IMG/VR virus record: IMGVR_UViG_3300037149_000105
Coordinates: 83,411 to 147,410 of that record
Source: a virus
Strand: one strand, 5' to 3'
Length of the DNA stretch: 64,000 bases
A program made the position numbers and the translations under genes. Below, in pieces: positions 129-12,966 of the stretch (position 1 is the stretch's first letter; each line of letters begins with the position of its first letter). The notes below the pieces were generated by a model. It ran no database searches, was not told the origin of the DNA, and saw only the letters and a list, made by a program, of their open reading frames with translations.

Positions 129-203
129 ATGAGTTCGATTCCTACTCTAACTAAGGAAATAGACTACCCAAATCTAAATTAAAGGTTTGACTCAGGAGTA
201 GAG

Positions 204-881
204 ATGATAGCTAATGTTTTATGGGGAATTACCCCTACAGAATTTAAAAAATTAGTTGCTAGTTCTTCTTCTTTTGCAGGTATTCTGCGTTATTTCAAAC
301 TTGCGGATAGCAAGGCTAATCGAAGAGCACTCTACATGCGAATGGGTGAATTGCAATGCAATATTTCCCATTTCACCCTTCGGAAAAGGGTAAAATCACC
401 ATCTTTACCAAACTTCGAAATTTTTTGTGAGCATTCGCCTCTTAGTCGAAAGAATGTAAAAATGAGAATACTTCGTGATAACTTGCTTCCTTATGTTTGT
501 AAATGTGGAAACTCAGGCAATTGGGAAGGAAAAAAGCTCGTGCTCCAACTAGAGCATAAAAATGGAATAGGGGACGATAATCGTCTTAATAATTTGGAAT
601 TCATATGTCCTAATTGCCATAGTCAAACTGCCACATTTGCAGGAAGACAAAATGCCCTAAATAACCCCCCCGTTCATAACCATCATGAGCGATGGAATCA
701 ACGAAAATTAAAATGGCCCACAAAAGAAGAACTAGAGTATCTTGTTTGGAGTAAGCCAACAACTGAGTTAGCCAAAGAGTTCGAAGTTAGTGACTCAGCA
801 ATCAGTAGGTGGTGCCGCTGCTACTCCATTAAAAAACCCGGACGAGGGTATTGGACAGCGAAAAAACCCATCTCTCCGTAG
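204..881 (+). CDS. HNH homing endonuclease with C-terminal HTH
   Basis: CKC...LQLEHKNG..DNRLNNLEFICPNCHSQT; C-terminal TTELAKEFEVSDSAISRWC HTH; low GC. Confidence 0.9.
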   Translation: MIANVLWGITPTEFKKLVASSSSFAGILRYFKLADSKANRRALYMRMGELQCNISHFTLRKRVKSPSLPNFEIFCEHSPLSRKNVKMRILRDNLLPYVCKCGNSGNWEGKKLVLQLEHKNGIGDDNRLNNLEFICPNCHSQTATFAGRQNALNNPPVHNHHERWNQRKLKWPTKEELEYLVWSKPTTELAKEFEVSDSAISRWCRCYSIKKPGRGYWTAKKPISP

Positions 882-948
882 ATTAACTGGACAAATCACT
901 GGTCTCCGAAACCAGAGAGTGCCAATTCGAGTTTGGTCGGAGAGACCA
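872..948 (+). tRNA. tRNA-Arg(CCG)
   Basis: acceptor CTCTCCG/CGGAGAG-A-CCA; anticodon arm CTGGT-CTCCGAA-ACCAG; T arm GCCAA-TTCGAGT-TTGGT. Confidence 0.9.
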
Positions 949-1012
949 TCTGACATTCATCTACCAAGTGTAGAAGGAAATCGGGAGGCGCTATGCGACT
1001 CCTCGTAAAATT

Positions 1013-1108
1013 TAGACATGTGCAGCAATCAAAAACCTCGTATGCAGACATGGCTTCGTGCCCCTGCAAAAAAGTTTCGGCGTTCTGTAAAAACGTCAAA
1101 CGTGTCTA
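1013..1108 (+). ncRNA. unassigned CAGCAA-stem RNA with tRNA-Tyr-like anticodon hairpin
   Basis: 9-bp terminal stem TAGACATGT/ACGTGTCTA, GCAGCAATC, hairpin GGCGTT-CTGTAAA-AACGTC; related copy at 11425-11474. Confidence 0.55.
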
Positions 1109-1150
1109 GCTTTTTAAAACTTCCGTTTCCTCTTTTGAATGGAGGGTAAC

Positions 1151-1495
1151 ATGCTTAGTGATGCTATTGATGATCATCAGAATATTCGAGACAGATTGGT
1201 CAAGTTCATAAGTAAAGAGCCCTTCAATGCTATGGACTTGTTCTCCGTTCGAAGAGACTATAACTGTGATCTGGGCTCCTGGCTTTGGAAGCATCGAAAT
1301 GCGGAAATAGCCGACAAAAAAGAGTATCAGGAACTCGTGGGGATTCATCATAATTTTCATGAGATTGCTTATAAAGCTCTAATGCTGGGATCTGATAATA
1401 AACCAGAAGAGGCTTTCGCGGTTTTGGTTGGCCCCTACGCAGTAATAGAGAAGCAACTGATCGAAGCTATCGTCAACCTTGGAGATGTCGAATGA
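1151..1495 (+). CDS. stand-alone CZB (chemoreceptor zinc-binding) domain protein
   Basis: DDH...DYNCDLGSWL...YQELVGIHHNFH gives the His/Cys/His/His CZB pattern; GGAGG RBS before ATG 1151. Confidence 0.75.
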   Translation: MLSDAIDDHQNIRDRLVKFISKEPFNAMDLFSVRRDYNCDLGSWLWKHRNAEIADKKEYQELVGIHHNFHEIAYKALMLGSDNKPEEAFAVLVGPYAVIEKQLIEAIVNLGDVE

Positions 1496-2076
1496 AGAAA
1501 CAAATGCATTATTCCCTTGGCCTCTACCCTCTGCGGAGTAGTGGCTATCGGGCTTTCGTCGGCTTCCGCCCCGTGTGGAGGTTCTGGGGCCATTGGATCA
1601 ACCCACAGACCTATTGGAGAGCCGTCAAATACTTCTGTCAGCGTGGCTACAGGGGATACGCAGATTGCGATCACTGGGACATGGATAGCTACCTCGAAAA
1701 CGTGATGTTGGGTCTGTTCCGCGATCTCAAGAAGCATACGCAAGGCTACCCAAGCGGTATGGGTGATCGGATCATTGACACGGAAGGAACTGATACTGGT
1801 TTCGAAAAATGGCAGGCTACCCTCACCGAGATCATTGAAGGTCTGGAAGCTTCCCAGGAACTCAAAGATGAGTTTACGGTTCCGGAGGGAACCTATAGCA
1901 AGGAGCCTATCTATTGGGAGCCGGTCGAGGGCCATGAGGATTGCTTTCGAATGAAGGAAACTGAGACTCCTCGTTTCAATAAGGAGCTTCACGATCAATG
2001 GTCTGCTCCGTTGAAAAGGAAGTGCCTGAGAGCTAAGACTTTAATGGCTCGTTATTGGGGTTGCTTCTGGGACTAA
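1492..2076 (+). CDS. hypothetical phage protein
   Basis: 194-aa ORF, ATGA overlap with upstream gene. Confidence 0.8.
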   Translation: MKKQMHYSLGLYPLRSSGYRAFVGFRPVWRFWGHWINPQTYWRAVKYFCQRGYRGYADCDHWDMDSYLENVMLGLFRDLKKHTQGYPSGMGDRIIDTEGTDTGFEKWQATLTEIIEGLEASQELKDEFTVPEGTYSKEPIYWEPVEGHEDCFRMKETETPRFNKELHDQWSAPLKRKCLRAKTLMARYWGCFWD

Positions 2077-2081
2077 AAACA

Positions 2082-2166
2082 CCCCGAATGGCGGAAGTGG
2101 CGAGACGCGCGAGACTTAAAATCTCGCATCCGTAAGGGTATGAGGGTTCGAATCCCTCTTCGGGGA
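2082..2166 (+). tRNA. tRNA-Leu(TAA), no encoded CCA
   Basis: CCCCGAA/TTCGGGG-A acceptor; CGAGA-CTTAAAA-TCTCG anticodon arm; long variable arm; GGTTCGAATCC T arm. Confidence 0.92.
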
Positions 2167-2790
2167 CAGGTGATGCCTAATAGCATTATCAGACACTCCT
2201 AATTCTCTGGCTAACACAGAAAAGTTGGAAGTAGCAAGACGCGCAAGTAGTTCTTCATGCGAAGGCCACTCTATTTTTGTCGGTTGTGGTTTTATAGACT
2301 TCTTTTCTTTAGGAGGGGAGGGTGACTTTGAGATATTTTTACCTCGATAGGTATCAGTTTGTGCATGGCAATTAGGGCAAATTACTCTAAGATTACTTAG
2401 GGTATTATCCATATGATTACCATTGATATGGTCCAATTCTAGGGGGATCGAGAGCTTGTTCCATTTAACTAACCCACATATACCACATTGTTTTATGAAT
2501 ACCCCCTCTGAAAAGAGCTTTTGTTTCAGTTTTGCTGATTGAATAGGGAAGCGGTTGTTTAAATAATCATCCAGGTCTCGTCTTGGCGGGAGTTTCACCC
2601 CTTTGCTCCAGCTTTTCCCCACAAAGTGCTTAGTGCTAACTGGCCATTTTTTGAGCGTTTGATAAAATTGCCGGTAGTTTCCTCCCTCAGCAACAATGTT
2701 GAGTTTGGTTAACACCTCCCGCACACAAGTGGAGCCTAACACTGCTTCTTTGAAAATTTCCTCAGTATAAGTTCGTTCAATCCGTTTCAT
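2116..2790 (-). CDS. HNH homing endonuclease (paralog of 204..881)
   Basis: CGIC...LELDHINGNHMDNTLSNLRVICPNCHAQT; C-terminal KIEWPS.EEL..HTH. Confidence 0.9.
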   Translation of the reverse strand: MKRIERTYTEEIFKEAVLGSTCVREVLTKLNIVAEGGNYRQFYQTLKKWPVSTKHFVGKSWSKGVKLPPRRDLDDYLNNRFPIQSAKLKQKLFSEGVFIKQCGICGLVKWNKLSIPLELDHINGNHMDNTLSNLRVICPNCHAQTDTYRGKNISKSPSPPKEKKSIKPQPTKIEWPSHEELLARLATSNFSVLARELGVSDNAIRHHLSPKRDSNPHTLTDARF

Positions 2791-2830
2791 TGGCAGCCTC
2801 TAAAGAAGGGCTGCATATTCCATTTCCTCC

Positions 2831-2918
2831 GGAAGATCGGTGTAGTTGGAGGGGCACACTAGTCTTGAAAACTAGGGTCCGAAAGGGCCAGCGGGTTCGA
2901 ATCCCACATCTTCCGCCA
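2831..2918 (+). tRNA. tRNA-Ser(TGA)
   Basis: GGAAGAT/ATCTTCC-G-CCA; CTAGT-CTTGAAA-ACTAG; long variable arm. Confidence 0.92.
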
Positions 2919-2919
2919 T

Positions 2920-2993
2920 GCCAATGTAGTTCAGTGGTAGAACCCGAGCCTTGTAAACTCGCCACGACAGTTCGATTCTGTCCCTTGGCTCCA
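2920..2993 (+). tRNA. tRNA-Thr(TGT)
   Basis: GCCAATG/CCTTGGC-T-CCA; D arm GTTCAGTGGTAGAAC; loop CTTGTAA. Confidence 0.88.
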
Positions 2994-3056
2994 ACACCCC
3001 CTTTCTCTGCTTTACCCTTACCTGATAGCAGAGCAGGTTCGCCTTAAGGAGGCAAT

Positions 3057-3968
3057 GTGATTATGCACAACAACAACACCGTAGTATCCCTTTACGCCCT
3101 GAATGGTAGCCGAAAGACCCCGCTCAGAGAATACGATCACAAGCGTGGGGTTCTTGAATCTGAAGTTAGGGTTCCATTGAAATTTGATTCTGAGTATGGA
3201 ATCGGTTTCAAGTTTCAGGACATCGGTCGTCGTCGCCTTGAACTCTGGATTGACGGAGCGATGGTGACGGACAATCTCATTCTCGATGGAGAGAGCTTCC
3301 TGGAGCGATTCATGGATTCTGACAAGAGATTCCGTTTCGTTGAAGCAAGCAATGCTGCCGTGGCTGATCCGACCAGTCCCTCCAATGGGGGAGTCATGGT
3401 GAAGCTATGGCGTGAACAGCCTGATCTCCAGATGTTCAAACTGGCCCCGGATTACGGCAAGCAGTGGCCGCAGCCCCCAGTAGCCCCTTGGCAGCCCTGG
3501 ACTCCTCCAGTAGTGTGGGGCCGCTCTGATTGCCCAGGAGATCCTTCGCGGTCCTTGGATGTCATGTGTGGGGGCGCTACGTCATCTTCCTCACCCTCCG
3601 GTCCTCAAGGTCCGGTTGGTCAGCAAGGAGCCGTTGGAGTGCGAGGAATTGGGTATGGTGACAACATCGGAGAGTGTAATCTCTTCTGTTCATCCGCTCA
3701 GTCTCCCAGCCTCGCTGATGGATTCTGTTCGACGGAGATGTCCAACCTATCCCTCTTCGATAAGCTGAAGGGAGCGACAGTTGAAGGATCCACCTCCAAG
3801 CAGACCTTCAATGATACGGTTTGGCTGGGTGACTTTGGTAGCCCCTTGGTTTTCAAGTTCCAGCTTCACGGAATCGAAGAAGCCACACCGGGCAATTTCT
3901 GCCCAGGTTGTGGGATTAAACGCAAGAATCCCACTAACTTCTGCCCCAATTGTGGAGCAAAGCAATAG
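3057..3968 (+). CDS. hypothetical protein with short Gly-X-Y stretch and C-terminal zinc ribbon
   Basis: AAGGAGG RBS; GPQGPVGQQGAVGVRG; CPGC...CPNC. Confidence 0.85.
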   Translation: MIMHNNNTVVSLYALNGSRKTPLREYDHKRGVLESEVRVPLKFDSEYGIGFKFQDIGRRRLELWIDGAMVTDNLILDGESFLERFMDSDKRFRFVEASNAAVADPTSPSNGGVMVKLWREQPDLQMFKLAPDYGKQWPQPPVAPWQPWTPPVVWGRSDCPGDPSRSLDVMCGGATSSSSPSGPQGPVGQQGAVGVRGIGYGDNIGECNLFCSSAQSPSLADGFCSTEMSNLSLFDKLKGATVEGSTSKQTFNDTVWLGDFGSPLVFKFQLHGIEEATPGNFCPGCGIKRKNPTNFCPNCGAKQ

Positions 3969-3978
3969 TGGACCGAAC

Positions 3979-4050
3979 CTTCAAAGTTACCCCACCCTAT
4001 GGTGGGTATCCCTACTGCTTCCATGGTTCAGCATAGGGCACTCTTTGAAG
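3979..4050 (+). ncRNA. putative three-way-junction RNA
   Basis: CTTCAAAG/CTTTGAAG closing stem enclosing CCACC-CTAT-GGTGG and CCCTA..TGCT/AGCA-TAGGG hairpins. Confidence 0.4.
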
Positions 4051-4052
4051 TA

Positions 4053-4122
4053 GCATGGGGACTATAATCCCGGTGGTAAAGCCTCCACAAGGGGCCTGGA
4101 CGGTTCGACTCCGCCCCATGCG
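4053..4122 (+). ncRNA. tRNA-like RNA with non-canonical D and anticodon arms
   Basis: GCATGG/CCATGC terminal stem plus GGTTCGACTCC T arm; GCCTC-CACAA-GGGGC hairpin with 5-nt loop. Confidence 0.5.
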
Positions 4123-4128
4123 ATTAAT

Positions 4129-4218
4129 GGAAGTGTAAGCAAAGCAGGCAAGCTAGACTGTCTCGAAAACAGTTGGCCGATTTTCGGCCTAGGCGTTCGA
4201 CCCGCCTCACTTCCGCCA
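4129..4218 (+). tRNA. tRNA-Ser(CGA)
   Basis: GGAAGTG/CACTTCC-G-CCA; ACTGT-CTCGAAA-ACAGT; variable arm GGCCGA-TTT-TCGGCC. Confidence 0.9.
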
Positions 4219-4226
4219 TCATATTT

Positions 4227-4256
4227 GTGTGAGTCTTTAAAATAGACTAATGTCAA
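4227..4256 (+). repeat. 30-nt bulged-hairpin motif, copy 1 (degenerate)
   Basis: GTGT-GA-GTCTT-TAAAA-TAGAC-TAATG-TCAA. Confidence 0.6.
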
Positions 4257-4259
4257 ACT

Positions 4260-4335
4260 TGGACTGTAACTTCAGAGGCAGAAGGCTGCTTTTACACGGC
4301 AGAGGTCGAGATTTCGAAATTCTCCAGTCCAACCA
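4260..4335 (+). tRNA. tRNA-Val(TAC)
   Basis: TGGACTG/CAGTCCA-A-CCA; CTGCT-TTTACAC-GGCAG. Confidence 0.88.
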
Positions 4336-4378
4336 ATCCTCATCTTTCCGAACTACCGAGTATTATCATTGTAGGACA

Positions 4379-4408
4379 GTGTGAGTCTGAAACCCAGACT
4401 GACGACAC
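4379..4408 (+). repeat. 30-nt bulged-hairpin motif, copy 2
   Basis: GTGT-GA-GTCTG-AAACC-CAGAC-TGACG-ACAC. Confidence 0.7.
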
Positions 4409-4425
4409 ACACACACACACACACA
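4405..4425. repeat. (AC)10 dinucleotide microsatellite
   Basis: ACACACACACACACACACACA. Confidence 0.95.
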
Positions 4426-4480
4426 GGAAGCAGTTCATTGAAAATGGTCTCAGCAGTCCGACACACGCTTAGGCCACCAA

Positions 4481-4580
4481 GGGGAGAACGAGATTAGCTC
4501 ATGGAGAGCATCGGTTCTTTAGGCGTAGGGGATACCCTCACCACCGTGTGAAACGTTCGATTCGACTTCTCAGACTCCCC
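4481..4580 (+). ncRNA. tRNA-like RNA with extended acceptor stem and expanded anticodon loop
   Basis: GGGGAG/CTCCCC outer stem; TAGCTCATGGAGAGCA D arm; CGGT/ACCG stem enclosing AGGG-GATA-CCCT; GTTCGATTC T loop. Confidence 0.5.
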
Positions 4581-4601
4581 GATTATATGCCACAGTAGTA
4601 A

Positions 4602-4631
4602 GTGTGGGCCTACAAAATAGGCTAATGACAC
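4602..4631 (+). repeat. 30-nt bulged-hairpin motif, copy 3
   Basis: GTGT-GG-GCCTA-CAAAA-TAGGC-TAATG-ACAC. Confidence 0.75.
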
Positions 4632-4639
4632 GGTTAAGA

Positions 4640-4982
4640 GGTCTGAGTCGGTCACTGCCTTAGCCGGGGAACCGGATCCAGGTTCCCCGGATTTATACAA
4701 ATCGTTGAAGCCCCTCAAGGTCCTTGGGGCTCCGATATGGCGGCAACCAGATGAATGGTTGACAAAAGCAAGAGGCCGCTCTTCAAGGCAGAGCGAGTTC
4801 AGTTACGGCAACAACGGAGTCGATTCTCCATAGCGGGCTACCGCAAATCGCTTTGAAAGACTGAGCCCCCCGGCTCTCCGAAGACAGGAATCGTGAAACG
4901 GAGAGTGGAAGAAGTCCGAACCACTGGGGAGGAAAAGTTGCCGATGTGGGTAAGGTACGAAAGTATTGAATCCCACCCACCA
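4640..4982 (+). ncRNA. large multibranched structured RNA, family unassigned
   Basis: no credible ORF; many nested helices (see findings); ends in CCACCA, followed by an 11-bp hairpin at 4988-5016. Confidence 0.6.
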
Positions 4983-5034
4983 TGCACACGCCCCTGAACC
5001 AAACCTTCAGGGGCGTTCCATTTCAGGAGAGAAA

Positions 5035-5757
5035 ATGTTTGAGCCAAAAAAACTGAGTCCAGCGGAATTGTGCTTATGCCAGAACACCATCAGCCCCAAT
5101 ACATTCTACATGTTGGTTGGGGATGCGCTGGTATCTGGTAAACCCCTCTCGGTAGTTCGAATGGGGGATGGGGAACGAGCCCTCTATGACTACTGTCTGG
5201 GGAAACAGCTACCCAATATCATGGATGCGGATTGGATGCAACGACTCGGAGCCGATGGTATCGCAACGGATGAACTCCGGTATCGCCTGATTCGTGCCGC
5301 CACCCACTGCACCCACTTCGCTCCTTCCATTTCAGGAATTCAATTGGACAGTTTCGAACTCTACTCCCTATTCCCAGCCCGAGCCCGTTACGTTGATAAC
5401 TTTTTTGTCAACGCCTGGACGGAGGAGATGAAGATTCAACTTTTCAAAACTGCTGGCCATGTTCTCTTTATCCATCGGAACACTTCCACCGCAGATGCGA
5501 TGCAGATCAGAGCCAAATGGGGTCTAGGAGTCAAGGTGACCTATCTGAAGCTAGCTAGTTGGCGGGATTCGGAGTCAGTGATTGAGAAGGCCAAGAGCAT
5601 AGATGCTCCGCTAGTGCTGTTCAGTGCTGGTCCCGCTAGCAAATACATCGGTCCTGAAATTTCAACGAGTGGTTTGATTCCTCGTGTCACTTTGGATATC
5701 GGCAATGTGGCAGACTATTGGACCCTCACGAGTCTGAAAGATGTTCAAAGAATTTAA
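5035..5757 (+). CDS. GT-D fold-like glycosyltransferase domain protein
   Basis: LSVVRMGDGE near N-terminus and LFSAGPASK...TLDIGN near C-terminus; AGGAG RBS before ATG 5035. Confidence 0.6.
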   Translation: MFEPKKLSPAELCLCQNTISPNTFYMLVGDALVSGKPLSVVRMGDGERALYDYCLGKQLPNIMDADWMQRLGADGIATDELRYRLIRAATHCTHFAPSISGIQLDSFELYSLFPARARYVDNFFVNAWTEEMKIQLFKTAGHVLFIHRNTSTADAMQIRAKWGLGVKVTYLKLASWRDSESVIEKAKSIDAPLVLFSAGPASKYIGPEISTSGLIPRVTLDIGNVADYWTLTSLKDVQRI

Positions 5758-5763
5758 AAAATT

Positions 5764-5794
5764 GTATACGGATTTGCCAAAACTATGGTATAAT
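5764..5794 (+). promoter_or_regulatory. early-type promoter (GTATAC-N19-TATAAT)
   Basis: TGG-TATAAT -10 box; same layout as the other copies. Confidence 0.65.
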
Positions 5795-5805
5795 ATAGGT
5801 GTAGG

Positions 5806-6045
5806 GCAGATCATTGACAAGAAGCTCCAACGACGAGAGAACACAGAGGTAAGCCTCGTCGCTGTAGGGTTTGCAATCTAGCTTGGGGCATCGAAAGATG
5901 CGAACTTGATTCTTCGGAATCAACGGCACAACACAGGATGTGTTTCACCAAGCTTTATGTCGAGATTAGGGAAGCGCACCCAGAACGCTTCTTAACCAAA
6001 GTCCCGATACCACCCCAGTTGCATCCTCCACCTTCTAATGACTGC
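5806..6045 (+). ncRNA. stand-alone ~240-nt multibranched RNA
   Basis: between promoter 5764-5794 and terminator 6051-6077; paired ends; GAAA and C(TTCG)G tetraloop hairpins; no ORF. Confidence 0.65.
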
Positions 6046-6050
6046 GACAA

Positions 6051-6077
6051 GAGCCCCGAAAGGGGCTCAAGTTTTTT
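6051..6077 (+). terminator. intrinsic terminator
   Basis: GAGCCCC-GAAA-GGGGCTC followed by T6, between convergent units. Confidence 0.75.
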
Positions 6078-6675
6078 AATTTTCCAGTAAATCCGGATGA
6101 GTTTTTGTTAATCTGAGGTAGGCAGCGTGTTGTACAGGCCCTCCGTTAAACGCCGACACAACACTGGATGGGTTTCGCGCCTCTAAAATCACACGCCAGC
6201 CATCCCAACTGGCTATTCGTTTACCCCCAGAATCCTCAACTTTGCTGCAATGAGACAGCACTAGGGGTATCATGCGAAGCATATCAACCCCGGAGGAGAG
6301 TGGGTTCTCCTCCCCTGGGAACGCCTCAGCGTAAAGTTGCCTCAGTCTATCCCTCTTAGTCACAGTGTGATGCAACCCCATTCGCTCATCCCCCTTAATG
6401 AAATCTATCCAATCAGGAATGCTACCTATGTAGGTGGCTCCAAGCACATCGAGTCCGGTCTCCAAGTACTTGCTCATCGCTTCTTGACCCATTGTTAACC
6501 GATCACCCACATGAGTCTCTATTAGCTTCGGAGGGGTTCCAGGACCAGCCTTAATCTCTATTAATTTCCCATTTTTTATTCTTCGCCAATGAGCCCGATG
6601 ACCCATCAGGACCACATCCCTAGCGGATGCTTCTTTTAGCAATCTGGCTGCAAACTTGAATTTGAACCTGAACAT
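6076..6675 (-). CDS. putative BECR-fold (PBECR-like) ribonuclease domain protein
   Basis: GDERMGLHHTVTKR...IPLVL...RVIL....VVSAF resembles polyvalent-protein BECR nuclease domains. Confidence 0.4.
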   Translation of the reverse strand: MFRFKFKFAARLLKEASARDVVLMGHRAHWRRIKNGKLIEIKAGPGTPPKLIETHVGDRLTMGQEAMSKYLETGLDVLGATYIGSIPDWIDFIKGDERMGLHHTVTKRDRLRQLYAEAFPGEENPLSSGVDMLRMIPLVLSHCSKVEDSGGKRIASWDGWRVILEARNPSSVVSAFNGGPVQHAAYLRLTKTHPDLLEN

Positions 6676-6714
6676 CGTCGCCTCAACAAAGAGTTGCAGA
6701 TTCTGAAAATTTTT

Positions 6715-6745
6715 CTATACAAACCCCTTCGAAACAGGGTATACT
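6715..6745 (+). promoter_or_regulatory. early-type promoter
   Basis: CTATACAAA...GGTATACT. Confidence 0.7.
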
Positions 6746-6785
6746 AGTTAGGTAGGGGACGAAGAGCCCTTCAAAGGAGAAACAC

Positions 6786-7154
6786 ATGGAAGGCAAGCGT
6801 TTCAGCATCAACGGAATCAAGGTCACGGCAACCCATCTGGGTGGGGGCCTCTATGTCGGCATCCCCGACAACCTGGGTGAAGCCCTCAAGGCCCTCAAGA
6901 CTCTCCTGAGTGGTGCACTGTTCGAGCCCCGTGACATCCAGCTTCTGCCCGATGAGCCCAAGGGCACCCCGCAGGGTCACTACACCGCCCCCAAGGCTCC
7001 CGCCGCCCCCAAGCCCGACTTCTCCAACGAGACGGTCCTGGAGCACTGCAAGCGCAAGGGCTACAGCCAGCGGGACTTCGCTGACCTGATCGGCAAGCAT
7101 CACAAGACCGTGTGGCGGTGGCAGCAGGAAGGCAAGAAGATGTCCGAGGTCTAA
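6786..7154 (+). CDS. protein with C-terminal Xre/Cro-type HTH
   Basis: GYSQRDFADLIGKHHKTVWRWQ; AAGGAG RBS. Confidence 0.8.
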   Translation: MEGKRFSINGIKVTATHLGGGLYVGIPDNLGEALKALKTLLSGALFEPRDIQLLPDEPKGTPQGHYTAPKAPAAPKPDFSNETVLEHCKRKGYSQRDFADLIGKHHKTVWRWQQEGKKMSEV

Positions 7155-7258
7155 CCGGCTGGAGTGCCGGGGAGCTTAGGAATGTCAGAGACCCCCGATA
7201 CGTAGATCCGGCAGAATGGGCTGAACGTAGTAGGTTGGCCCCTCCAGCGTCAACGCAT

Positions 7259-7276
7259 AGCCCCGAAAGGGGCTTT
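7259..7276 (+). terminator. hairpin, possible terminator
   Basis: AGCCCC-GAAA-GGGGCT-TT. Confidence 0.5.
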
Positions 7277-7294
7277 GGTGGTAGAGGGGGCTAT

Positions 7295-7537
7295 ATGAAG
7301 TTCACCACTGGTGGTCACTATGGCATAGAGGCTAAGGATCTGGAAGACAATACGGTGAGTGTCGTGGCCGAGGATGGCCGAGTGATGTTTGCAGTCATCT
7401 TGGGTGAGGATGGCCACTCCATCGAAGTCCGGAGTTCCGCAACCTGCAAGGTTGGGGGAGTCCTTTATGATTCGCGCCTCTTGGTTCAGCCCGAAGCATC
7501 CAATTCCATTTTCATCAAGGCTCGTTCCTATGAGTAA
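7295..7537 (+). CDS. hypothetical protein
   Basis: GAGGGGG RBS before ATG 7295; the longer ORF call from 7112 runs through structured intergenic DNA. Confidence 0.7.
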   Translation: MKFTTGGHYGIEAKDLEDNTVSVVAEDGRVMFAVILGEDGHSIEVRSSATCKVGGVLYDSRLLVQPEASNSIFIKARSYE

Positions 7538-7691
7538 ATGGAAATATTACAACTGCCCCCAATGCGGGGCCATCTTGGAGCGAAGATGCTGGGCTCCTCT
7601 GGGAGAGAAACGAGTTAGGTTTCTCTTCTGCCGTGAGTGCCGGGTCCGCTACACGACCAAGGACATGGTTCTTAATAAGGAGTTCAAATGA
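7530..7691 (+). CDS. small zinc-ribbon protein
   Basis: CPQC...CREC; overlapping start and stop with neighbours. Confidence 0.6.
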   Translation: MSKWKYYNCPQCGAILERRCWAPLGEKRVRFLFCRECRVRYTTKDMVLNKEFK

Positions 7692-7915
7692 GCAAACTGT
7701 GCGTTTTTTGTGAACATATGGAGTTCGATCACGAGGATGCTCATGGCGGAGGCTGTGAAACCTGCGGCTATGGGGCAGATGAGGGCCGAAACGATATGGT
7801 CTGTCAGAAGGGCCACTGGAAGACCGGAATTGAGTGGGGCCTGACCAGTTACCGTGAGAAAATCTGTGCCGCTGAAACCTGCACTGATTACGAACAGGCC
7901 GAGGACGAAGATTAG
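7688..7915 (+). CDS. small Cys-rich hypothetical protein
   Basis: AAGGAG RBS; CVFC, CETC. Confidence 0.75.
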   Translation: MSKLCVFCEHMEFDHEDAHGGGCETCGYGADEGRNDMVCQKGHWKTGIEWGLTSYREKICAAETCTDYEQAEDED

Positions 7916-7945
7916 CTATACAAACTCTCCGGTCTGAGGTATACT
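7916..7945 (+). promoter_or_regulatory. early-type promoter
   Basis: CTATACAAA...GGTATACT. Confidence 0.7.
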
Positions 7946-7983
7946 AATTGGGAAGGGGCCGAAACCCCACTGAGGAGAATCGC

Positions 7984-8253
7984 ATGGCTCTCGAACGTCA
8001 GGACATCCGTATCTCGAACCGGATATACCTTCTGCTCAACCCGGAGGATTCGGACACCCCGGCCCTGGTCCATACCAAGGACTGGAAGGCTTCGGCCACC
8101 TACACCTGTGTGATGGGTGAGGGAGTCCTCATGTCCAATCGAGATGAGGATGTGGAACTCACGCCCCAGGAACTGAAGACCCTTGACAAGTATGAGGATC
8201 TGGAATGCCAGTATAACGAGGAAGCTCGTAAGGACTGTCCTGAATACCAGTAG
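7984..8253 (+). CDS. hypothetical protein
   Basis: GAGGAG RBS, ATG 7984. Confidence 0.75.
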   Translation: MALERQDIRISNRIYLLLNPEDSDTPALVHTKDWKASATYTCVMGEGVLMSNRDEDVELTPQELKTLDKYEDLECQYNEEARKDCPEYQ

Positions 8254-8294
8254 CCCTCCATGAACGCAATTTCCATCCCACTGAGGAGAATCGC

Positions 8295-8618
8295 ATGGCC
8301 AAGAAAATCACTCTCGCAACGCTTAAGTCCTTTGTCAGAAAGAACCTCCCCGTTATGTTCATCTGCAAAAGAGCTAGTTTTGACGGGATGACGGACTGTG
8401 TGGAATACGACAGCAACGCGACTTTTCAACCGGCAAAAGAGGGCGCATCCTATCCTGAAAACACCTTAGGGATTGCGGGCGTCTGGCTGGTTGGAAGTTC
8501 ACGTGACCGTATTAGTCGCTATGAAGCCCCAGGCTGGGAAGGATTCGAAGTCTATAATTGCTGTGGGACGTTTGTGGTGGCGGTGAAGGTAGCCATCCCC
8601 ATGGAACCGAAACTGTAA
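8295..8618 (+). CDS. hypothetical phage protein
   Basis: GAGGAG RBS identical to that of the upstream gene. Confidence 0.8.
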   Translation: MAKKITLATLKSFVRKNLPVMFICKRASFDGMTDCVEYDSNATFQPAKEGASYPENTLGIAGVWLVGSSRDRISRYEAPGWEGFEVYNCCGTFVVAVKVAIPMEPKL

Positions 8619-8657
8619 TTCCCGCCCCTCTGAAGAGGGGCATTCTTTGGAGCCATC

Positions 8658-9050
8658 ATGTCCATAGCTAGCCAGTATCTCGCGTTCGAACTTTCAGGGG
8701 CTAGTCGTGTCTTTTTGTGGACGCAGTTCAAGCCGCACTTCAAGAAAGTGATGTGCCAGCACATTACCGTCCAGTTCAATCTGACCGAGGAGTCGGCTGT
8801 GCTGCTCCAGGAGCAACTGGCTAACGCTAACCTTCAGGTCGTAGGGTTCCAGATCGGAGACGGGGTGGAGTGTCTGGTGGTGGAGGTGAACGGTTCGTCT
8901 CGTCGTCCCGATGGGGGCTGCTACCACATCACCCTCAGTCTGGCCGATGGGCATAAGCCGGTCGAGTCCAACCAGCTTATCAAACAGCAGGGGTTCCAGA
9001 CTTGTGTCCCAGTCGGAATCGAGGCGGAGCTAAAACTCCTCAACAAATGA
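8658..9050 (+). CDS. 2H phosphoesterase (cyclic phosphodiesterase-like)
   Basis: two HxT motifs: QHITV and YHITL...KPVESN. Confidence 0.75.
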   Translation: MSIASQYLAFELSGASRVFLWTQFKPHFKKVMCQHITVQFNLTEESAVLLQEQLANANLQVVGFQIGDGVECLVVEVNGSSRRPDGGCYHITLSLADGHKPVESNQLIKQQGFQTCVPVGIEAELKLLNK

Positions 9051-9077
9051 GGCCATCACACAGTAATATGTATTATA

Positions 9078-9401
9078 ATGCCCAATCACTACGCCACTTC
9101 ATGGATGCCCCGAGAGGACTTGGTTATCTCCCTATCCGATGAGACTGCGGCGGAGCGGACTCAAGAGGAACGAGACCAAATGTTCCTAGAGCTTCGTGAG
9201 GTGGTGAAACAGCATGGCTTTGACCTCAACGCCTGGGGCTCTGATGCTTCGTTTAGAAAATATTATCAGGCACCATTGAAGAAAGAATGTGAAGGTTTCT
9301 TTGACGTATGGGACTCATACTGGCTGGCCAATACGTTGGGTGGCCCAACCTTCGACCAATTGAGCGAGGCAGCGGAGCGGATTCGCAAATTCATCATTTG
9401 A
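9078..9401 (+). CDS. hypothetical protein
   Basis: 107-aa ORF in gene run. Confidence 0.65.
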   Translation: MPNHYATSWMPREDLVISLSDETAAERTQEERDQMFLELREVVKQHGFDLNAWGSDASFRKYYQAPLKKECEGFFDVWDSYWLANTLGGPTFDQLSEAAERIRKFII

Positions 9402-9426
9402 CATCTTCCCTGAAATTTGATATGCT
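9398..9426 (+). promoter_or_regulatory. sigma70-type promoter
   Basis: TTGACA-N17-TATGCT. Confidence 0.7.
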
Positions 9427-9438
9427 GTAAGGGAGGAT

Positions 9439-9849
9439 GTGATGATAAAACTCACTGGCAAGCTTCATTACGACCACACTCCCGAGTACGGATATCGGCT
9501 CGTGCTGGAAATCTGCCCCGGTATTCCCATGTTCTACCGGTGGCTCATCCCCAAGTGGTATCAAGTGAATGGACTGAGGGCCAAGGCTCACATCACCGTG
9601 ATCCGGAGGGAGAAGCCTGCTAACCTTAAGGCATGGGGTAAGTATGAAGGGGAGGTTGTGGAGTATGAGTATGATCCTGAGTCTCTTCAGACTGATGGCA
9701 AGCTGTACTGGTGGTTAAACTGTTTCAGCCACCGGCTCGAAGCGGTTGCTGAGGAGTTGGGTATGCCCTTTGTCAACTACATCAAACCCGCCGAAGGTTA
9801 CCGGAAGGTTTGGCACACCACTGTAGCAAACATGAAACAAACGAATTAA
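9439..9849 (+). CDS. second 2H phosphoesterase
   Basis: AHITV and WHTTV HxT motifs; GGGAGG RBS. Confidence 0.7.
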   Translation: MMIKLTGKLHYDHTPEYGYRLVLEICPGIPMFYRWLIPKWYQVNGLRAKAHITVIRREKPANLKAWGKYEGEVVEYEYDPESLQTDGKLYWWLNCFSHRLEAVAEELGMPFVNYIKPAEGYRKVWHTTVANMKQTN

Positions 9850-9854
9850 TTTCT

Positions 9855-9885
9855 ATATACAAATCTGACCGAAAGTGGGTATACT
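9855..9885 (+). promoter_or_regulatory. early-type promoter
   Basis: ATATACAAA...GGTATACT. Confidence 0.7.
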
Positions 9886-9903
9886 AGTCTAAAGGAGTCA
9901 CAT

Positions 9904-10032
9904 ATGAACCGTCTCGTTCGTCTCGCCCTTCGCGCACAGCGGAATCTTCGCAATCCCCTGGTCTGGTATGTGGCCGGGATGGTTGACCTGACCCTCATCC
10001 TGCTGGTCTGCAACCACTTCAAGTGGATCTGA
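9904..10032 (+). CDS. 42-aa basic/membrane peptide (not in ORF track)
   Basis: AAGGAG RBS; MNRLVRLALRAQRNLRNPLVWYVAGMVDLTLILLVCNHFKWI; own promoter and terminator. Confidence 0.65.
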   Translation: MNRLVRLALRAQRNLRNPLVWYVAGMVDLTLILLVCNHFKWI

Positions 10033-10047
10033 TACACAGAAAAGAAA

Positions 10048-10075
10048 TGAAACGCCTCCGAACGGGGGCGTTTCA
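10048..10075 (+). terminator. intrinsic terminator
   Basis: TGAAACGCCTCC-GAAC-GGGGGCGTTTCA. Confidence 0.6.
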
Positions 10076-10103
10076 AGTATTAGCTAGTAAAGGAGTAGTT
10101 CAA

Positions 10104-10829
10104 ATGAAAGAAGGATACACTCACATCTCTGCCATTATCGACCGTTCAGGTTCGATGTTCGGCATCAAAACCGATACCGAGGGCGGGTATAACACCTTCC
10201 TGAAGGATCAGAAAGAACTGCCAGGGGAGGCTACGATCAGCCTCACTACATTTGACGACCGGATTGAACTCGAATACGGAATGATCGCCATCAAGGATGC
10301 CCCCGCCTTCACCCTCCAGCCCCATGGTATGACTGCCATGCTGGATGCCATTGGTGTGACCATCAAGAACCTGGGAGCCAAGCTGGCAGCCATGGATGAA
10401 GCCGACCGTCCCGAGAAGGTTCTGGTTGTGATTCTCACTGATGGCGAGGAGAACAGCAGCAAGGAATACACCTATCAGACCATCAAGGCCATGATCACCG
10501 AACAAACCGAAGTTTACTCCTGGGAGTTCCTGTTCCTAGGAGCCAACCAGGATGCGGTTCTGGCCGGGAGTCAGATTGGCATCTCCGCTGGCAAGAGCAT
10601 GAGCTATGCGGCCAACGGAGCCAGTGTGGGCAACACTTTCACAACCATATCCAAATCCAGTTCTGCTTATCGGATGTCGGCCCGAGGGGTCGCTGCCCCT
10701 GATTTCACCAATCAGGATCGCGCTGATTCCATGATTCTGGATCCGAGTGCAGCAACCAGTGTTTCGGCTGGGGTTCCTAACGTTCAGACGTTCAACCCAC
10801 CTCCGGTTCCCCCAGCAGATCCTAAGTAA
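10104..10829 (+). CDS. von Willebrand factor A (MIDAS) domain protein
   Basis: IIDRSGSM, TAMLDA, ILTDGEENSS; AAGGAG RBS before ATG 10104. Confidence 0.9.
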   Translation: MKEGYTHISAIIDRSGSMFGIKTDTEGGYNTFLKDQKELPGEATISLTTFDDRIELEYGMIAIKDAPAFTLQPHGMTAMLDAIGVTIKNLGAKLAAMDEADRPEKVLVVILTDGEENSSKEYTYQTIKAMITEQTEVYSWEFLFLGANQDAVLAGSQIGISAGKSMSYAANGASVGNTFTTISKSSSAYRMSARGVAAPDFTNQDRADSMILDPSAATSVSAGVPNVQTFNPPPVPPADPK

Positions 10830-10853
10830 GCTCAGCGACTAGCCGCTTCTAAT

Positions 10854-10883
10854 GTGTGAACCTACAAAATAGGCTAATGACAC
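10854..10883 (+). repeat. 30-nt bulged-hairpin motif, copy 4 (abuts RBS)
   Basis: GTGT-GA-ACCTA-CAAAA-TAGGC-TAATG-ACAC then GGGAGG. Confidence 0.75.
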
Positions 10884-10896
10884 GGGAGGAGCCATA

Positions 10897-11370
10897 ATGT
10901 CCATCTTAACCGAGTGGGTCTCTACCCTAGAAGCCACCACTTATCCCTGGACTGATCAGTATTTACATACGCCTAATGGGTTCGACCCATTAGGCGTTTT
11001 GTGTGAAATGTATCGTCTCACGTTCTCCGCTCAGCCGATTCAGGATCAACCAACTTGGGTTTTGGGCCCTACTGGCACCTTTTACATCTTCACCGATCCT
11101 GGGGCTACTGACGGCATCAGCAACAAGCTCCCTGAGTCGGTTCAGCGATGGGCTGATTTGTTGGAAGCGGATCCAATCATGGTTCTGACCGATAGCAATG
11201 TAGACATTGGCTATCCGGTCTACATCCCTCTGAATGAAGTGGTGGATGGATTGGTTCTGAAGGTGGATACCACCATCCCCCCGGTTTTCGGGGTGCAGCA
11301 GCGGCCTTATTCAAATACTGAAATTATAGCTCTTATCGCTGCATTCGTCGCTTCCTACAATCCTGATTAA
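10897..11370 (+). CDS. hypothetical protein
   Basis: GGAGG RBS; 157 aa. Confidence 0.8.
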   Translation: MSILTEWVSTLEATTYPWTDQYLHTPNGFDPLGVLCEMYRLTFSAQPIQDQPTWVLGPTGTFYIFTDPGATDGISNKLPESVQRWADLLEADPIMVLTDSNVDIGYPVYIPLNEVVDGLVLKVDTTIPPVFGVQQRPYSNTEIIALIAAFVASYNPD

Positions 11371-11424
11371 ACTTTTTTGAAAAAAGACTAACCAAAAATC
11401 AAAACTCGCGGTATTATCTCTAGG

Positions 11425-11474
11425 TAGACGCTAACAGCAATCTCATCCCCTGTAACGGAACGAAACTGCGTCTA
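11425..11474 (+). promoter_or_regulatory. CAGCAA-stem RNA element in 5' leader of the DUF2828-like gene
   Basis: TAGACGC-TAACAGCAATC...CTGTAAC...AAACT-GCGTCTA immediately after a GGTATTAT -10 box. Confidence 0.55.
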
Positions 11475-11529
11475 GTGTTTTTGTCTCATGGCCGTGCCAT
11501 GAGTGGATTGAAACAAATAGGAGATCGTC

Positions 11530-12966
11530 GTGTCCAACCTGCTTAACGCCATCACCCGCACTCAGAACTACACCCGTACCGAGAATGGTGCGCTGACGCA
11601 TCAGTCCACGCTGGACGGTGTGCTTGACTTCTATTACCACGCTCCCGCTCGTCGGGGTCAGGACAACACTGCCCTCTTCTTGAAGGCATTTGGCGAGGAC
11701 CGTCTGACGGCCATCCGCTGCCTTTTCTACATCCGTGACATCCGTGGGGGTCAGGGGGAGCGTGAGACCTTCCGTCAGGGTCTGCGCGAACTGTACAAGA
11801 ACTTCCGTGAGGTGTTCGACCACATCCTCTCCTATGTGCCGGTCTACGGTCGTTGGGACGACATCGTGGAGTACGTCTCCGATCAGAAGGTCGTGTCGGT
11901 CATCCATGAGCAGCTAAACCTGGATCTCGGATCCGAAGAGGGTGTGAGCCTCCTGGCGAAGTGGATGCCCTCCATCAACACCTCTTCCAAGGAGACGGTC
12001 GCCCTGGCGCACCGATGGGTGAAGGCTCTGGGTTGGACTCCCGTCCAGTACCGCAAGAATCTCTCTACCCTCCGTGGCCGCATCAAGCTGGTCGAGACCG
12101 CCATGTCCCAGAACCAGTGGGACTCCATCTCTTACGGCCAGATTCCATCCCGTGCGGGTCTGCTCTACAAGGATGCGTTCAAGCGTCATGATGGTGCTCG
12201 TTACGACGAGTTCCTGGCGGCGGTTGTGCGGGGTGAGGAGAAAATCAACTCCGGCACCCTCTACCCCTACGAACTGGTGGCCAAGTCCATCGGCCAGAAG
12301 GACCAGACCGCCGAGGCGATGTGGAAGTGCCTGCCGAACTATGCGGATACCGACGACAACGCTCTGGTTGTCGCAGATGTTTCGGGCTCGATGTGTGGGG
12401 CTCGTGGGCCAAGCAACATCGCCCCGATCACCGTGTGCATCAGCCTCGCCATCTATCTGGCTGAGCGGAACAAGGGGATCTTCCACAACAAGTTCATCAC
12501 CTTCAGTGAGACCCCGGCTGTCCAGTCTCTCAAGGGGGACACCCTCTACGAGAAGGTCAGCAACCTCTCCAGGGCAACCTGGGGCATGAACACCAATCTC
12601 CAGTCGGTGTTCAATGTCGTTCTGTCCACGGCGGTCAAGGCGAAGCTCCCGGCCAGCGAAATGCCGACCAAGATTTTCATCATCTCCGACATGGAGTTTG
12701 ACTCTTGCGTGACGAACAACACCAACCTGGAAGTGATCAAGGCGAAGTATGCGGCCTCCGGCTACACGCTCCCAACCATCATCTTCTGGAACGTGGATTC
12801 CCGCAACGATCAGACCCCGGTCACGATGGATGAGAAGGGCACGTATCTGGTCTCCGGATGCAGCCCCAGCATCTTCGAAAAGGCCATCAAGGCTCAGGCG
12901 TGTAGTCCCATCGAAATGTGTTTGGAGGTTTTGAACGGACCTCGCTACGAGCCGATCACTCTGTGA
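11530..12966 (+). CDS. DUF2828-type TROVE/Ro60-like protein with C-terminal vWA
   Basis: TENGA, RDIRGGQGER, GRWDD, LAKWMP, TLYPYE, VADVSGSM, WGMNTN, ISDMEFD, IIFWNV. Confidence 0.85.
   Translation: MSNLLNAITRTQNYTRTENGALTHQSTLDGVLDFYYHAPARRGQDNTALFLKAFGEDRLTAIRCLFYIRDIRGGQGERETFRQGLRELYKNFREVFDHILSYVPVYGRWDDIVEYVSDQKVVSVIHEQLNLDLGSEEGVSLLAKWMPSINTSSKETVALAHRWVKALGWTPVQYRKNLSTLRGRIKLVETAMSQNQWDSISYGQIPSRAGLLYKDAFKRHDGARYDEFLAAVVRGEEKINSGTLYPYELVAKSIGQKDQTAEAMWKCLPNYADTDDNALVVADVSGSMCGARGPSNIAPITVCISLAIYLAERNKGIFHNKFITFSETPAVQSLKGDTLYEKVSNLSRATWGMNTNLQSVFNVVLSTAVKAKLPASEMPTKIFIISDMEFDSCVTNNTNLEVIKAKYAASGYTLPTIIFWNVDSRNDQTPVTMDEKGTYLVSGCSPSIFEKAIKAQACSPIEMCLEVLNGPRYEPITL

What the first reader, a model, noticed from the sequence alone, without database searches (positions are those of the whole stretch)
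4227..10883. Four copies of an unassigned 30-nt bulged hairpin with compensatory changes
Seen at 4227, 4379, 4602 and 10854: GTGT-GR-[5 bp]-[5-nt A-rich loop]-[5 bp]-TRAYG-ACAC, same length each time. The inner stem covaries (GTCTG/CAGAC, GCCTA/TAGGC, GTCTT/TAGAC, ACCTA/TAGGC) while the asymmetric 2x5 internal loop is conserved. This points to an RNA (or ssDNA) structure rather than a dsDNA operator. Each copy lies just 5' of a downstream unit: tRNA-Val, a tRNA-like RNA, the large ncRNA, and the RBS of 10897. Inference: a processing site, a put/boxB-like antitermination element, or a protein-binding leader that coordinates the RNA island.
Basis: partly seen in the sequence, partly recalled or inferred. 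Interest (0 to 1): 0.75.

Follow-up and report, generated by a model that had tools for sequence, protein, structure and literature searches.

The report
Conserved 30-base hairpin in phage tRNA islands
A clade of uncultured peat and lake giant phages places a sharply bounded 30-base hairpin motif, absent from any catalogue searched, after tRNA genes and just ahead of genes and small RNAs; it is most likely an RNA signal read by an unknown protein, but its function is not shown.

Summary
All four copies are at the stated coordinates, all on the + strand, and they are the only four in the 147-kb phage record. Shuffled sequence gives no exact match to the pattern.

Close strains and more distant peat and lake relatives (45-72% protein identity) carry the same 30-mer in non-syntenic intergenic places, giving 13 distinct sequences. 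The inner stem is 6 bp and covaries at three pairs. G-U pairs occur only on the + strand, and the loop varies. The outer GUGU/ACAC "stem" never covaries. A TAAAA-like run before the motif is also conserved.

Copies sit 8-46 bases after tRNA or tRNA-like ends, 13-16 bases before start codons, or 3 bases before tRNA-Val. Metatranscriptome contigs run across copies 3 and 4. Twice, homology between strains breaks exactly at the motif's last base.

There is no Rfam match. No CRISPR array with this repeat turned up in the species genome collection or the metagenomes. There is no sigma-70 consensus and no terminator tail.

Best reading (about 0.45): a cis-acting RNA punctuation or leader hairpin recognised by an unidentified protein. 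Rivals: a phage-specific promoter cassette (0.22), a CRISPR-repeat-like decoy (0.12), and a DNA-level recombination site (0.08).

Other first-stage reads of this same stretch in this scan noted the same hairpin; it was not found on other DNA.

The parts
4227..4256 (+). Motif copy 1. Stem AGTCT/AGACT; the 3' end is degenerate (TGTCAA). It lies 8 nt after tRNA-Ser and 3 nt before tRNA-Val.
   Evidence: 41.5 bits
4379..4408 (+). Motif copy 2. Stem AGTCTG/CAGACT, loop AAACC. It lies 46 nt after tRNA-Val and runs into an (AC)n microsatellite.
   Evidence: (-11.8 kcal/mol, z -4.1)
4602..4631 (+). Motif copy 3. Stem GGCCTA/TAGGCT with G-U at the base. It lies about 26 nt after the tRNA-like 3' end. 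In strain L049 a 363-nt cassette is inserted exactly after its last base.
   Evidence: an RNA contig covering 4448-4694 crosses it
10854..10883 (+). Motif copy 4. It lies 24 nt after the stop of ORF 10023-10829, is followed at once by GGAGG, and ends 13 nt before the ATG at 10897.
   Evidence: RNA contigs of three runs cross it
4129..4218 (+). tRNA-Ser(cga), upstream neighbour of copy 1
4260..4332 (+). tRNA-Val(tac), downstream neighbour of copy 1
   Evidence: Rfam RF00005 45.7 bits; ARAGORN at a relaxed threshold
4405..4425 (+). (AC)n microsatellite continuing the ACAC end of copy 2; shorter in strain L049
4488..4575 (+). Degenerate tRNA-like element between copies 2 and 3
   Evidence: found by ARAGORN only at an 80% threshold; no Rfam tRNA hit
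4663..4694 (+). 10-bp GC-rich hairpin followed by ATTT, 31 nt after copy 3. The RNA contig that crosses copy 3 stops here.
4698..5018 (+). Very abundant non-coding RNA downstream of copy 3. It does not contain the motif.
   Evidence: depth 1236-2260 against 0-13 beside it
10023..10829 (+). Upstream gene of copy 4 (phrog_7371, function unknown)
10897..11370 (+). Downstream gene of copy 4 (157 aa, no family found here)

Best explanation
The motif is a cis-acting RNA element. It is a 6-bp hairpin with a free 5-nt loop, held between two conserved single-stranded flanks: (UAAAA)GUGUG on the 5' side and AAUGACAC on the 3' side. It is transcribed as part of polycistronic tRNA, ncRNA and mRNA precursors.

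Proposed action (inferred): a sequence-specific protein, from the phage or the host and not yet identified, recognises the flanks and the base of the stem. It cuts at the hairpin or stays bound to it. This separates the upstream unit (a tRNA or a gene) from the downstream one (a tRNA, small RNA or mRNA) and leaves a protective hairpin at the new end.

Because the unit is short, portable and sharply bounded, it also ends up at the joints of shuffled cassettes.

Shown: the repeat, the hairpin covariation, strand specificity, the placement rules, presence in RNA contigs, and restriction to one clade.
Inferred: protein recognition, cleavage or stabilisation, and the link to cassette shuffling.
For: 1. 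Thirteen distinct sequences from the phage itself, two strains or close relatives, and lake/peat relatives keep 95.8% of stem cells paired. No shuffle in 500 reached the observed covariation score; slid controls gave 24-42% pairing.
2. Pair 8/20 has three types and pair 11/17 two. Pair 6/22 is AU or GU, and GC in L040b.
3. The G-U pairs and the asymmetric flanks fit only the + strand, which is the transcribed strand.
4. The loop sequence is free (AAACA, AAAUA, CAAAA, AAACC, UGAGG, GAGAC), while G5, A24, G26 and ACAC are fixed. This suggests recognition of the flanks rather than the loop.
5. Identity stops abruptly at both ends of the 30-mer when the same variant sits in different contexts (L040 against L043).
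6. Placement is between units. Copies lie 8-46 nt after tRNA or tRNA-like 3' ends (w4227, w4379, w4602, L047a, L047b). They end 13-16 nt before start codons in w10854, L041, L048 and L040b, and 3 nt before tRNA-Val.
7. An A/U-rich run precedes the hairpin: 58 of 70 positions are A/T, and 0 of 20,000 random sets reach this. The author notes, from memory and untested, that this resembles RNase E-type sites downstream of tRNAs.
8. RNA-library contigs run through copy 3 (4448-4694) and copy 4 (three runs) without a break.
9. There is no sigma-70 consensus and no T-run terminator at the copies.
10. In L054 a separate TTGACA-N15-TATAAT lies 9 nt upstream, so there the motif would be at the start of the transcript rather than being the promoter.
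Against: - No RNA 5' or 3' end was mapped. Only assembled contigs could be laid, they cannot show ends, and some may derive from contaminating DNA.
- No candidate binding or cutting protein was found. No Cas6, Csy4 or CasE family member is in the held half of the genome.
- The upstream TAAAA run, the diversity of downstream cargo and the homology breaks exactly at the 3' end fit a promoter cassette equally well.
- Covariation rests on three pairs. The metagenome search pattern fixed C9, T10, A18, G19, C21 and T22, so those columns could not vary.
- Several sequences are related by descent, so the shuffle control overstates significance.
Confidence: 0.45

Rival explanations
1. Phage-specific promoter or regulatory cassette acting on DNA. 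On this reading the TAAAA run plus GTGTG and CTAATGACAC are read by a phage-modified or phage-encoded RNA polymerase, and transcription starts at or just after the motif. The hairpin is either a separate overlapping RNA function, as in the PeSL cassettes of T4-type phages, or an extruded DNA hairpin, as in N4 early promoters (the N4 comparison is from memory).
For: - It is a discrete, portable unit in front of very different cargo: a tRNA, small RNAs and protein genes.
- A conserved T-A-A-A-A lies at -5..-1.
- Homology blocks begin exactly at the base after the motif in two independent comparisons: G001 3086|3087, and the L049 insertion at w4631|4632.
- PeSLs likewise lie between a stop codon and the Shine-Dalgarno sequence, contain a stem-loop with G-T pairs, and mark indel joints (PMC2839356; PMC4122927).
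Against: - There is no sigma-70-like -35/-10 at the copies.
- The TAWWWG register ends in G where a -10 hexamer needs T.
- TAWWWGTGTG does not recur without the hairpin elsewhere in the genome.
- No T7-type RNA polymerase and no sigma region 2 or 4 was found in the held 147 kb, although only about 51% of the genome is held.
- Stem covariation and strand-specific G-U pairs are not expected of a double-strand promoter.
- RNA contigs cross the copies.
- Only 4 copies occur in 147 kb, three of them within 405 nt.
Confidence: 0.22
2. CRISPR-repeat-like RNA decoy (solitary repeat unit, Racr type) or a substrate for a Cas6-type nuclease. The layout is 5 nt, a 6-bp stem with a 5-nt loop, then 8 nt. 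That is the layout of type I-E/I-F repeats as the author recalls it; this was not tested here. The same genome already carries solitary type I-C-like repeats in the same kind of position.
For: - The architecture is GUGUG + hairpin + AAUGACAC.
- Units are solitary or loosely clustered and intergenic. L040 has two copies 36 nt apart.
- A second family in this genome has the form GTCTC-hairpin-GAGTGGATTGAAAC. It sits 15-17 nt before starts, including at window 11483-11514, and gives weak Rfam CRISPR-DR hits.
- The Racr paper says solitary repeat units are often directly downstream of a promoter and lie in intergenic regions (PMC10651486).
Against: - No cognate repeat was found. The array pattern in one genome per 185,579 species gave 4 hits, judged chance on reading them.
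- The single-repeat pattern in 241 million metagenome records gave only phage contigs and no array.
- No Rfam CRISPR-DR family matches even at E = 10 on short stretches.
- The handle is absent from the Racr paper's supplements.
- The conserved TAAAA upstream of each copy is not expected of repeat mimicry.
Confidence: 0.12
3. DNA-level recombination or endonuclease site. On this reading the motif is the target or end of a mobile cassette, for example a homing-endonuclease site or a single-strand hairpin recombination site, and this drives the mosaic structure of the tRNA island.
For: - There are two exact homology breaks at the last base of the motif.
- The three clustered copies lie in a 574-nt segment (4123-4696) that the relative G001 lacks.
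- HNH and homing-endonuclease genes are scattered in the island.
Against: - No recombinase or transposase is linked to the copies.
- No target duplication or second end was seen at the L049 insertion.
- The same cargo occurs without the motif in G001.
- Conservation of the identical 30-mer across phages whose proteins have diverged to 45-72% identity, always in gene orientation and often at a fixed distance from start codons, points to an expression signal. The breaks can be explained by short-homology exchange at a dispersed repeat.
Confidence: 0.08

Closest known systems
Solitary CRISPR repeat units / RNA anti-CRISPRs (Racr; Camara-Wilpert et al. 2023, PMC10651486)
   Same: Both are short, solitary, intergenic hairpin units in phage genomes with conserved flanks and a variable hairpin. 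Here the layout is 5 nt + hairpin + 8 nt. A true I-C-like family sits in the same genome in equivalent leader positions.
   Different: No CRISPR repeat with these flanks was found in any collection searched. An extra conserved TAAAA precedes the unit.
PeSL promoter/stem-loop cassettes of T4-type phages (Arbiol et al. 2010, PMC2839356; Comeau et al. 2014, PMC4122927)
   Same: Both are dispersed repeats between a stop codon and the next Shine-Dalgarno sequence. Both contain a stem-loop with G-T pairs, are preceded by an AT-rich run, and sit at indel and replacement joints between close relatives.
   Different: PeSLs carry a consensus sigma-70 promoter and a GC-rich terminator stem-loop. Here there is no -35/-10 consensus and no T-run, and the conserved letters are GTGTG and CTAATGACAC.
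Lambda nut boxB / HK022 put antitermination RNAs
   Same: Both are small hairpins with an A-rich pentaloop in a leader. Lambdoid boxC is a GU-rich box resembling the GUGUG here (from memory, not tested).
   Different: The loop is not conserved (UGAGG, GAGAC and CAAAA also occur). No boxA was seen by eye next to the copies (not scanned). The order of elements differs, and there is no Rfam match.
Intercistronic RNase III/RNase E processing hairpins of phage early transcripts (T7 R sites, T4 tRNA cluster processing; from memory)
   Same: Both are bulged hairpins between cistrons and between tRNAs, preceded by an A/U-rich single strand, and would leave a protective hairpin on one product.
   Different: At 10 bp in all, the structure is much shorter than RNase III substrates. 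It has strong sequence conservation of its unpaired letters, which general RNases do not need.
N4 virion RNA polymerase hairpin promoters (from memory)
   Same: Both combine a small hairpin of varying stem sequence with conserved letters, with the start expected about 8 nt past the stem, which here is the base after the motif.
   Different: N4 hairpins have 3-nt loops. No such polymerase was detected in the held half of the genome (one search tested T7-type only). G-U pairs favour RNA.

Membership tests
Any Rfam 15 family | Covariance-model match at or near the gathering score | tested here: not met
   The whole window at gathering score gave tRNAs only. E-value scans of 1-5200, 10700-11600, 4215-4645 and L040 930-1080 gave nothing on the copies except chance-level hits at E > 2.
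CRISPR repeat mimic (SRU/Racr) | Sequence similarity to a known CRISPR repeat, or to arrays in host genomes | tested here: not met
   No array in the species genome collection or in metagenome contigs. No Rfam CRISPR-DR hit. Not in the Racr supplements. Repeats of other lengths or with diverged flanks would have been missed.
CRISPR repeat mimic (SRU/Racr) | Solitary, intergenic, not next to cas genes | tested here: met
   Copies are intergenic. No Cas6, Csy4 or CasE in the held 147 kb.
CRISPR repeat mimic (SRU/Racr) | Binds or is cut by Cas proteins and inhibits interference | not testable with these tools
   Needs a host, the Cas proteins and an assay.
PeSL cassette | Consensus sigma-70 early promoter inside the repeat | tested here: not met
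   No promoter-like site at any copy. The upstream TAWWWG run is in the wrong register.
PeSL cassette | Stem-loop acting as a terminator (GC-rich, T-run) | tested here: not met
   No T-run after the stem. RNA contigs read through copies 3 and 4.
PeSL cassette | Lies at indel or replacement joints between close relatives | tested here: met
   G001 3086|3087 and L049 at w4631|4632.
nut (boxA/boxB) or put antiterminator | Conserved GNRA-like pentaloop (boxB) with an adjacent boxA, or the two-hairpin put fold | tested here: not met
   The loop varies freely. The unit is a single 30-nt hairpin. There is no Rfam hit. boxA was looked for by eye only.
Intrinsic terminator | GC-rich stem followed by a T-run | tested here: not met
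   Searches list no site at the copies. The 3' flank is AATGACAC.
Symmetric double-strand operator | Two-fold symmetric half-sites with fixed sequence | tested here: not met
   The arms are asymmetric (1 nt against 4 nt). The half-sites change while keeping pairing, and G-U pairs occur on one strand only.

The most novel reading that the evidence does not exclude
The motif and the type I-C-like repeats in the same genome are two parallel sets of repeat-like RNA signals. This clade of giant phages would use them to punctuate and tag its own tRNA, small-RNA and mRNA cargo. The GUGUG...AAUGACAC family would then be read by an undescribed hairpin-specific endoribonuclease or binding protein: either a phage enzyme encoded in the missing half of the genome, or a host CRISPR-type processing enzyme whose arrays have not been sampled.
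Probability: 0.15. Interest if true: 0.75.

Novelty: new variant of a known kind. Interest (0 to 1): 0.45.

Why it matters
Giant phages with large tRNA and small-RNA islands are known almost only from metagenomes, and how they express and process these islands is unknown. This signal is sharply defined, conserved and structured. It marks unit boundaries and recombination joints, which gives a concrete handle for end mapping, pull-down of the reader protein and reporter assays. If it proves to be a second repeat-like decoy or a substrate of a new nuclease, it would extend what is known about RNA-based counter-defence and phage RNA processing. If it proves to be a promoter cassette, it would extend PeSL-type modular shuffling beyond T4-type phages.

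Tried and rejected
- **CRISPR arrays with this repeat.** The array pattern in the species genome collection gave 4 hits, none of them an array when read. The single-repeat pattern in the viral and metagenome collections gave only phage contigs, plus one chance hit inside a GC-rich ORF, L046.
- **Racr paper supplements.** The handle occurs only in unrelated oligos.
- **Rfam**, including the CRISPR-DR families: nothing. A ToxI hit on the minus strand at E = 3.2 is chance.
- **Sigma-70 promoter and terminator scans:** nothing at the copies.
- **Reader proteins in the held 147 kb.** No T7-type RNA polymerase (the control genomes gave no signal either, so this test is weak), no sigma region 2 or 4, and no Cas6, Csy4 or CasE. 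Only about half of the genome is held, so absence is not shown.
- **Guide-like partial copy for the phage's dead TnpB.** No match of 12 nt or longer elsewhere in the genome.
- **The 5' part (TAWWWGTGTG) as a stand-alone promoter box:** it does not recur.
- **More distant phages sharing the DUF2828 gene (G003-G011):** no copy.
- **GenBank phages:** only chance partial hits.
- **K-turn reading of the internal loop:** rejected by eye, because the strand opposite G26-A27 reads UG, not GA.
- **Leader-peptide reading of the conserved ATG:** rejected. There is no Shine-Dalgarno sequence, and the frames are 3-22 codons with no conservation (by eye).
- **Ro60 link of the DUF2828 protein:** no PDB sequence hit.
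- **Conservation of copy 4 in G001:** not informative, because the whole 150-nt neighbourhood is about 97% identical.
- **RNA depth around the copies:** too low and patchy to show a step. Stretches without cover prove nothing.

Full report
**Setting.** The window is the last 64 kb of a 147,410-bp IMG/VR virus record, which CheckV estimates to be about 51% complete. The record comes from peat; DNA runs from peat and freshwater hold it. A tRNA/tmRNA island spans genome 77315-87800, which is window -6095 to 4400. It holds about 20 tRNAs and a tmRNA, with HNH endonuclease genes scattered among them. Tail and baseplate genes lie further on.

**The observation.**
- Three match GTGTGR-N15-TRAYGACAC exactly. 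Shuffled sequence gives no exact match.
- A covariance model built from the copies finds exactly these four in the whole record.
- Copy 1 has a degenerate 3' end (TGTCAA).
- The stem is really 6 bp, because R6 pairs with T22. This leaves a 1 x 4 internal loop.
- Two of the four stems carry one mismatch each.

**Relatives.**
- Exact and degenerate pattern scans of IMG/VR found only a near-identical fragment (G002) and a relative at about 85% nucleotide identity (G001).
- G001 has the copy-4 orthologue. It also has a new copy at 3057, with stem AGCCTA/TAGGCT and loop TGAGG.
- The metagenome scan gave 15 contigs. Two are strains of this phage. One (L046) is a chance hit inside an ORF.
- The rest are lake and peat relatives whose proteins are 45-72% identical to this phage's. 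They carry the same 30-mer in different, non-syntenic intergenic places.
- A second model found one more, diverged copy 36 nt after the first in L040.
- More distant phages that share the DUF2828 gene have none, nor do GenBank phages.

**Structure.** Across 12 aligned distinct sequences, 95.8% of stem cells pair. With the partner slid by 1-3 columns, pairing drops to 24-42%.
- Pair 8/20 is UA, CG or AU.
- Pair 11/17 is GC or AU.
- Pair 6/22 is AU or GU. In L040b it is GC, alongside a U.G at 9/19.
- The G-U pairs would be C.A on the other strand, so the structure belongs to the + strand, which is the sense strand of all neighbouring genes.
- The loop is free.
- The outer GUGU/ACAC helix never covaries and is broken twice, so it is better read as two conserved single-stranded flanks.

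Caveats: the search pattern fixed six stem letters, and several sequences are related by descent.

**Extended motif and placement.** The five bases before the motif are T-A-A-A-A-like. 58 of 70 positions are A/T, and none of 20,000 random sets reached this. Identity stops abruptly at both ends of the unit when the same variant occurs in different contexts.

Copies lie in these positions:
- 8-46 nt after tRNA or tRNA-like 3' ends: w4227, w4379, w4602, L047a and L047b.
- 5-24 nt after stop codons.
- 13-16 nt before start codons: w10854, L041, L048 and L040b.
- 3 nt before tRNA-Val.

The association with tRNA islands holds in the relatives. Even so, most tRNAs of this phage's island have no copy.

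**Mosaic joints.** In G001, the base after the motif (3087) starts a 1768-nt block that is 100% identical to this genome. The left flank is only 85% identical, and this genome has a 734-nt segment with two tRNAs in place of the motif. In strain L049, a 363-nt cassette sits exactly between w4631 and w4632, directly after copy 3. The same cassette occurs in G001 without a motif. The three clustered copies lie in a 574-nt segment that G001 lacks.

**RNA evidence.** Only assembled contigs of four metatranscriptome runs could be laid.
- One contig (X19, depth 13) runs from about 4448 through copy 3 and stops at 4694, which is the ATTT after a 10-bp hairpin.
- Contigs of three runs cross copy 4.
- So the motif is present in RNA, but ends cannot be read from contigs, and some DNA carry-over cannot be excluded.
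- The very abundant RNA downstream starts at about 4698 and does not include the motif.

**What it is not.**
- It matches no Rfam family, including the CRISPR-DR families.
- It has no sigma-70 consensus and no terminator tail.
- It is not a symmetric operator.
- It does not meet boxB/put criteria.
The same genome carries solitary type I-C-like repeats 15-17 nt before starts; I confirmed their sequences and found weak CRISPR-DR hits for the one at 11483-11514. The present motif has the 5 + hairpin + 8 layout that I recall for type I-E/I-F repeats.
- However, no array with such a repeat exists in one genome per 185,579 species or in the metagenome contigs. The conserved TAAAA upstream is also not expected of mimicry. 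So membership is not met, although the reading is not excluded.

**Best reading.** I favour a cis-acting RNA punctuation or leader hairpin, recognised through its conserved flanks by an unidentified protein that cuts or protects at unit boundaries (0.45). The rivals are:
- A phage-specific promoter cassette of the PeSL kind (0.22). It explains the portability, the upstream A/T run and the joints, but not the covariation, the strand-specific wobble pairs or the read-through.
- A CRISPR-repeat-like decoy (0.12).
- A DNA recombination or endonuclease site (0.08).

The rest is left open. Single-nucleotide end mapping would decide between the first two.

Noticed in passing
window 4698-5018 and 5801-6070: In four peat and permafrost metatranscriptomes these two non-coding stretches are 100-1000 times deeper than their neighbours. 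They assemble as closed cycles: contig length equals the unit plus 30, with joints 5018>4698, 4983>4701 and 6070>5801, the last seen in three runs. They may be circular or head-to-tail RNAs, or a template-switching artefact of very abundant linear RNAs. The ends coincide with a TATAAT-type start (5801) and with terminator hairpins.
   Followed up: partly
window 11483-11514 (also genome 53163, 53208, 54539): A solitary type I-C-like CRISPR repeat (GTCTC-hairpin-GAGTGGATTGAAAC) lies 15 nt before the GTG start of the DUF2828 gene. It gives weak Rfam CRISPR-DR2 and DR54 hits (E about 5). This is a second leader-hairpin family in the same genome.
   Followed up: partly
G001 (L014) 3087-4854 = genome 77956-79723: A 1768-nt block is 100% identical between two phages that are otherwise 78-93% identical across the tRNA island. 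Other blocks are 99.0-99.6% identical. This indicates recent exchange of island segments.
   Followed up: partly
L049 (reverse strand) 1360-1722, inserted at window 4631|4632: A 363-nt non-coding cassette is present in one strain and, at 92% identity, in G001 (12509-12707), but absent here. It contains GCTAGCAAAA-type sequence like the other small RNAs of the island.
   Followed up: partly
window 4405-4425: An (AC)n microsatellite continues the ACAC end of copy 2. Its length differs between strains.
   Followed up: no
genome 77393-77468 (window -6017..-5942): ARAGORN calls a tRNA with a four-base anticodon (aaaa), and Rfam scores it as a tRNA at 52.7 bits. It could be a frameshift-suppressor-like or otherwise odd tRNA.
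   Followed up: no
genome 82484-82584 (L017 12484-12584): There is a sub-threshold match to the wcaG RNA motif (30.9 bits, gathering score 42).
   Followed up: no
window 63631-63943: Five tandem 78-nt repeats lie inside the open frame at the window's end (minus strand). This is probably a repetitive protein.
   Followed up: no
window 10969-10997: A perfect 13-bp hairpin followed by TTTGTGTG lies inside ORF 10897-11370. It looks like a terminator within a gene.
   Followed up: no
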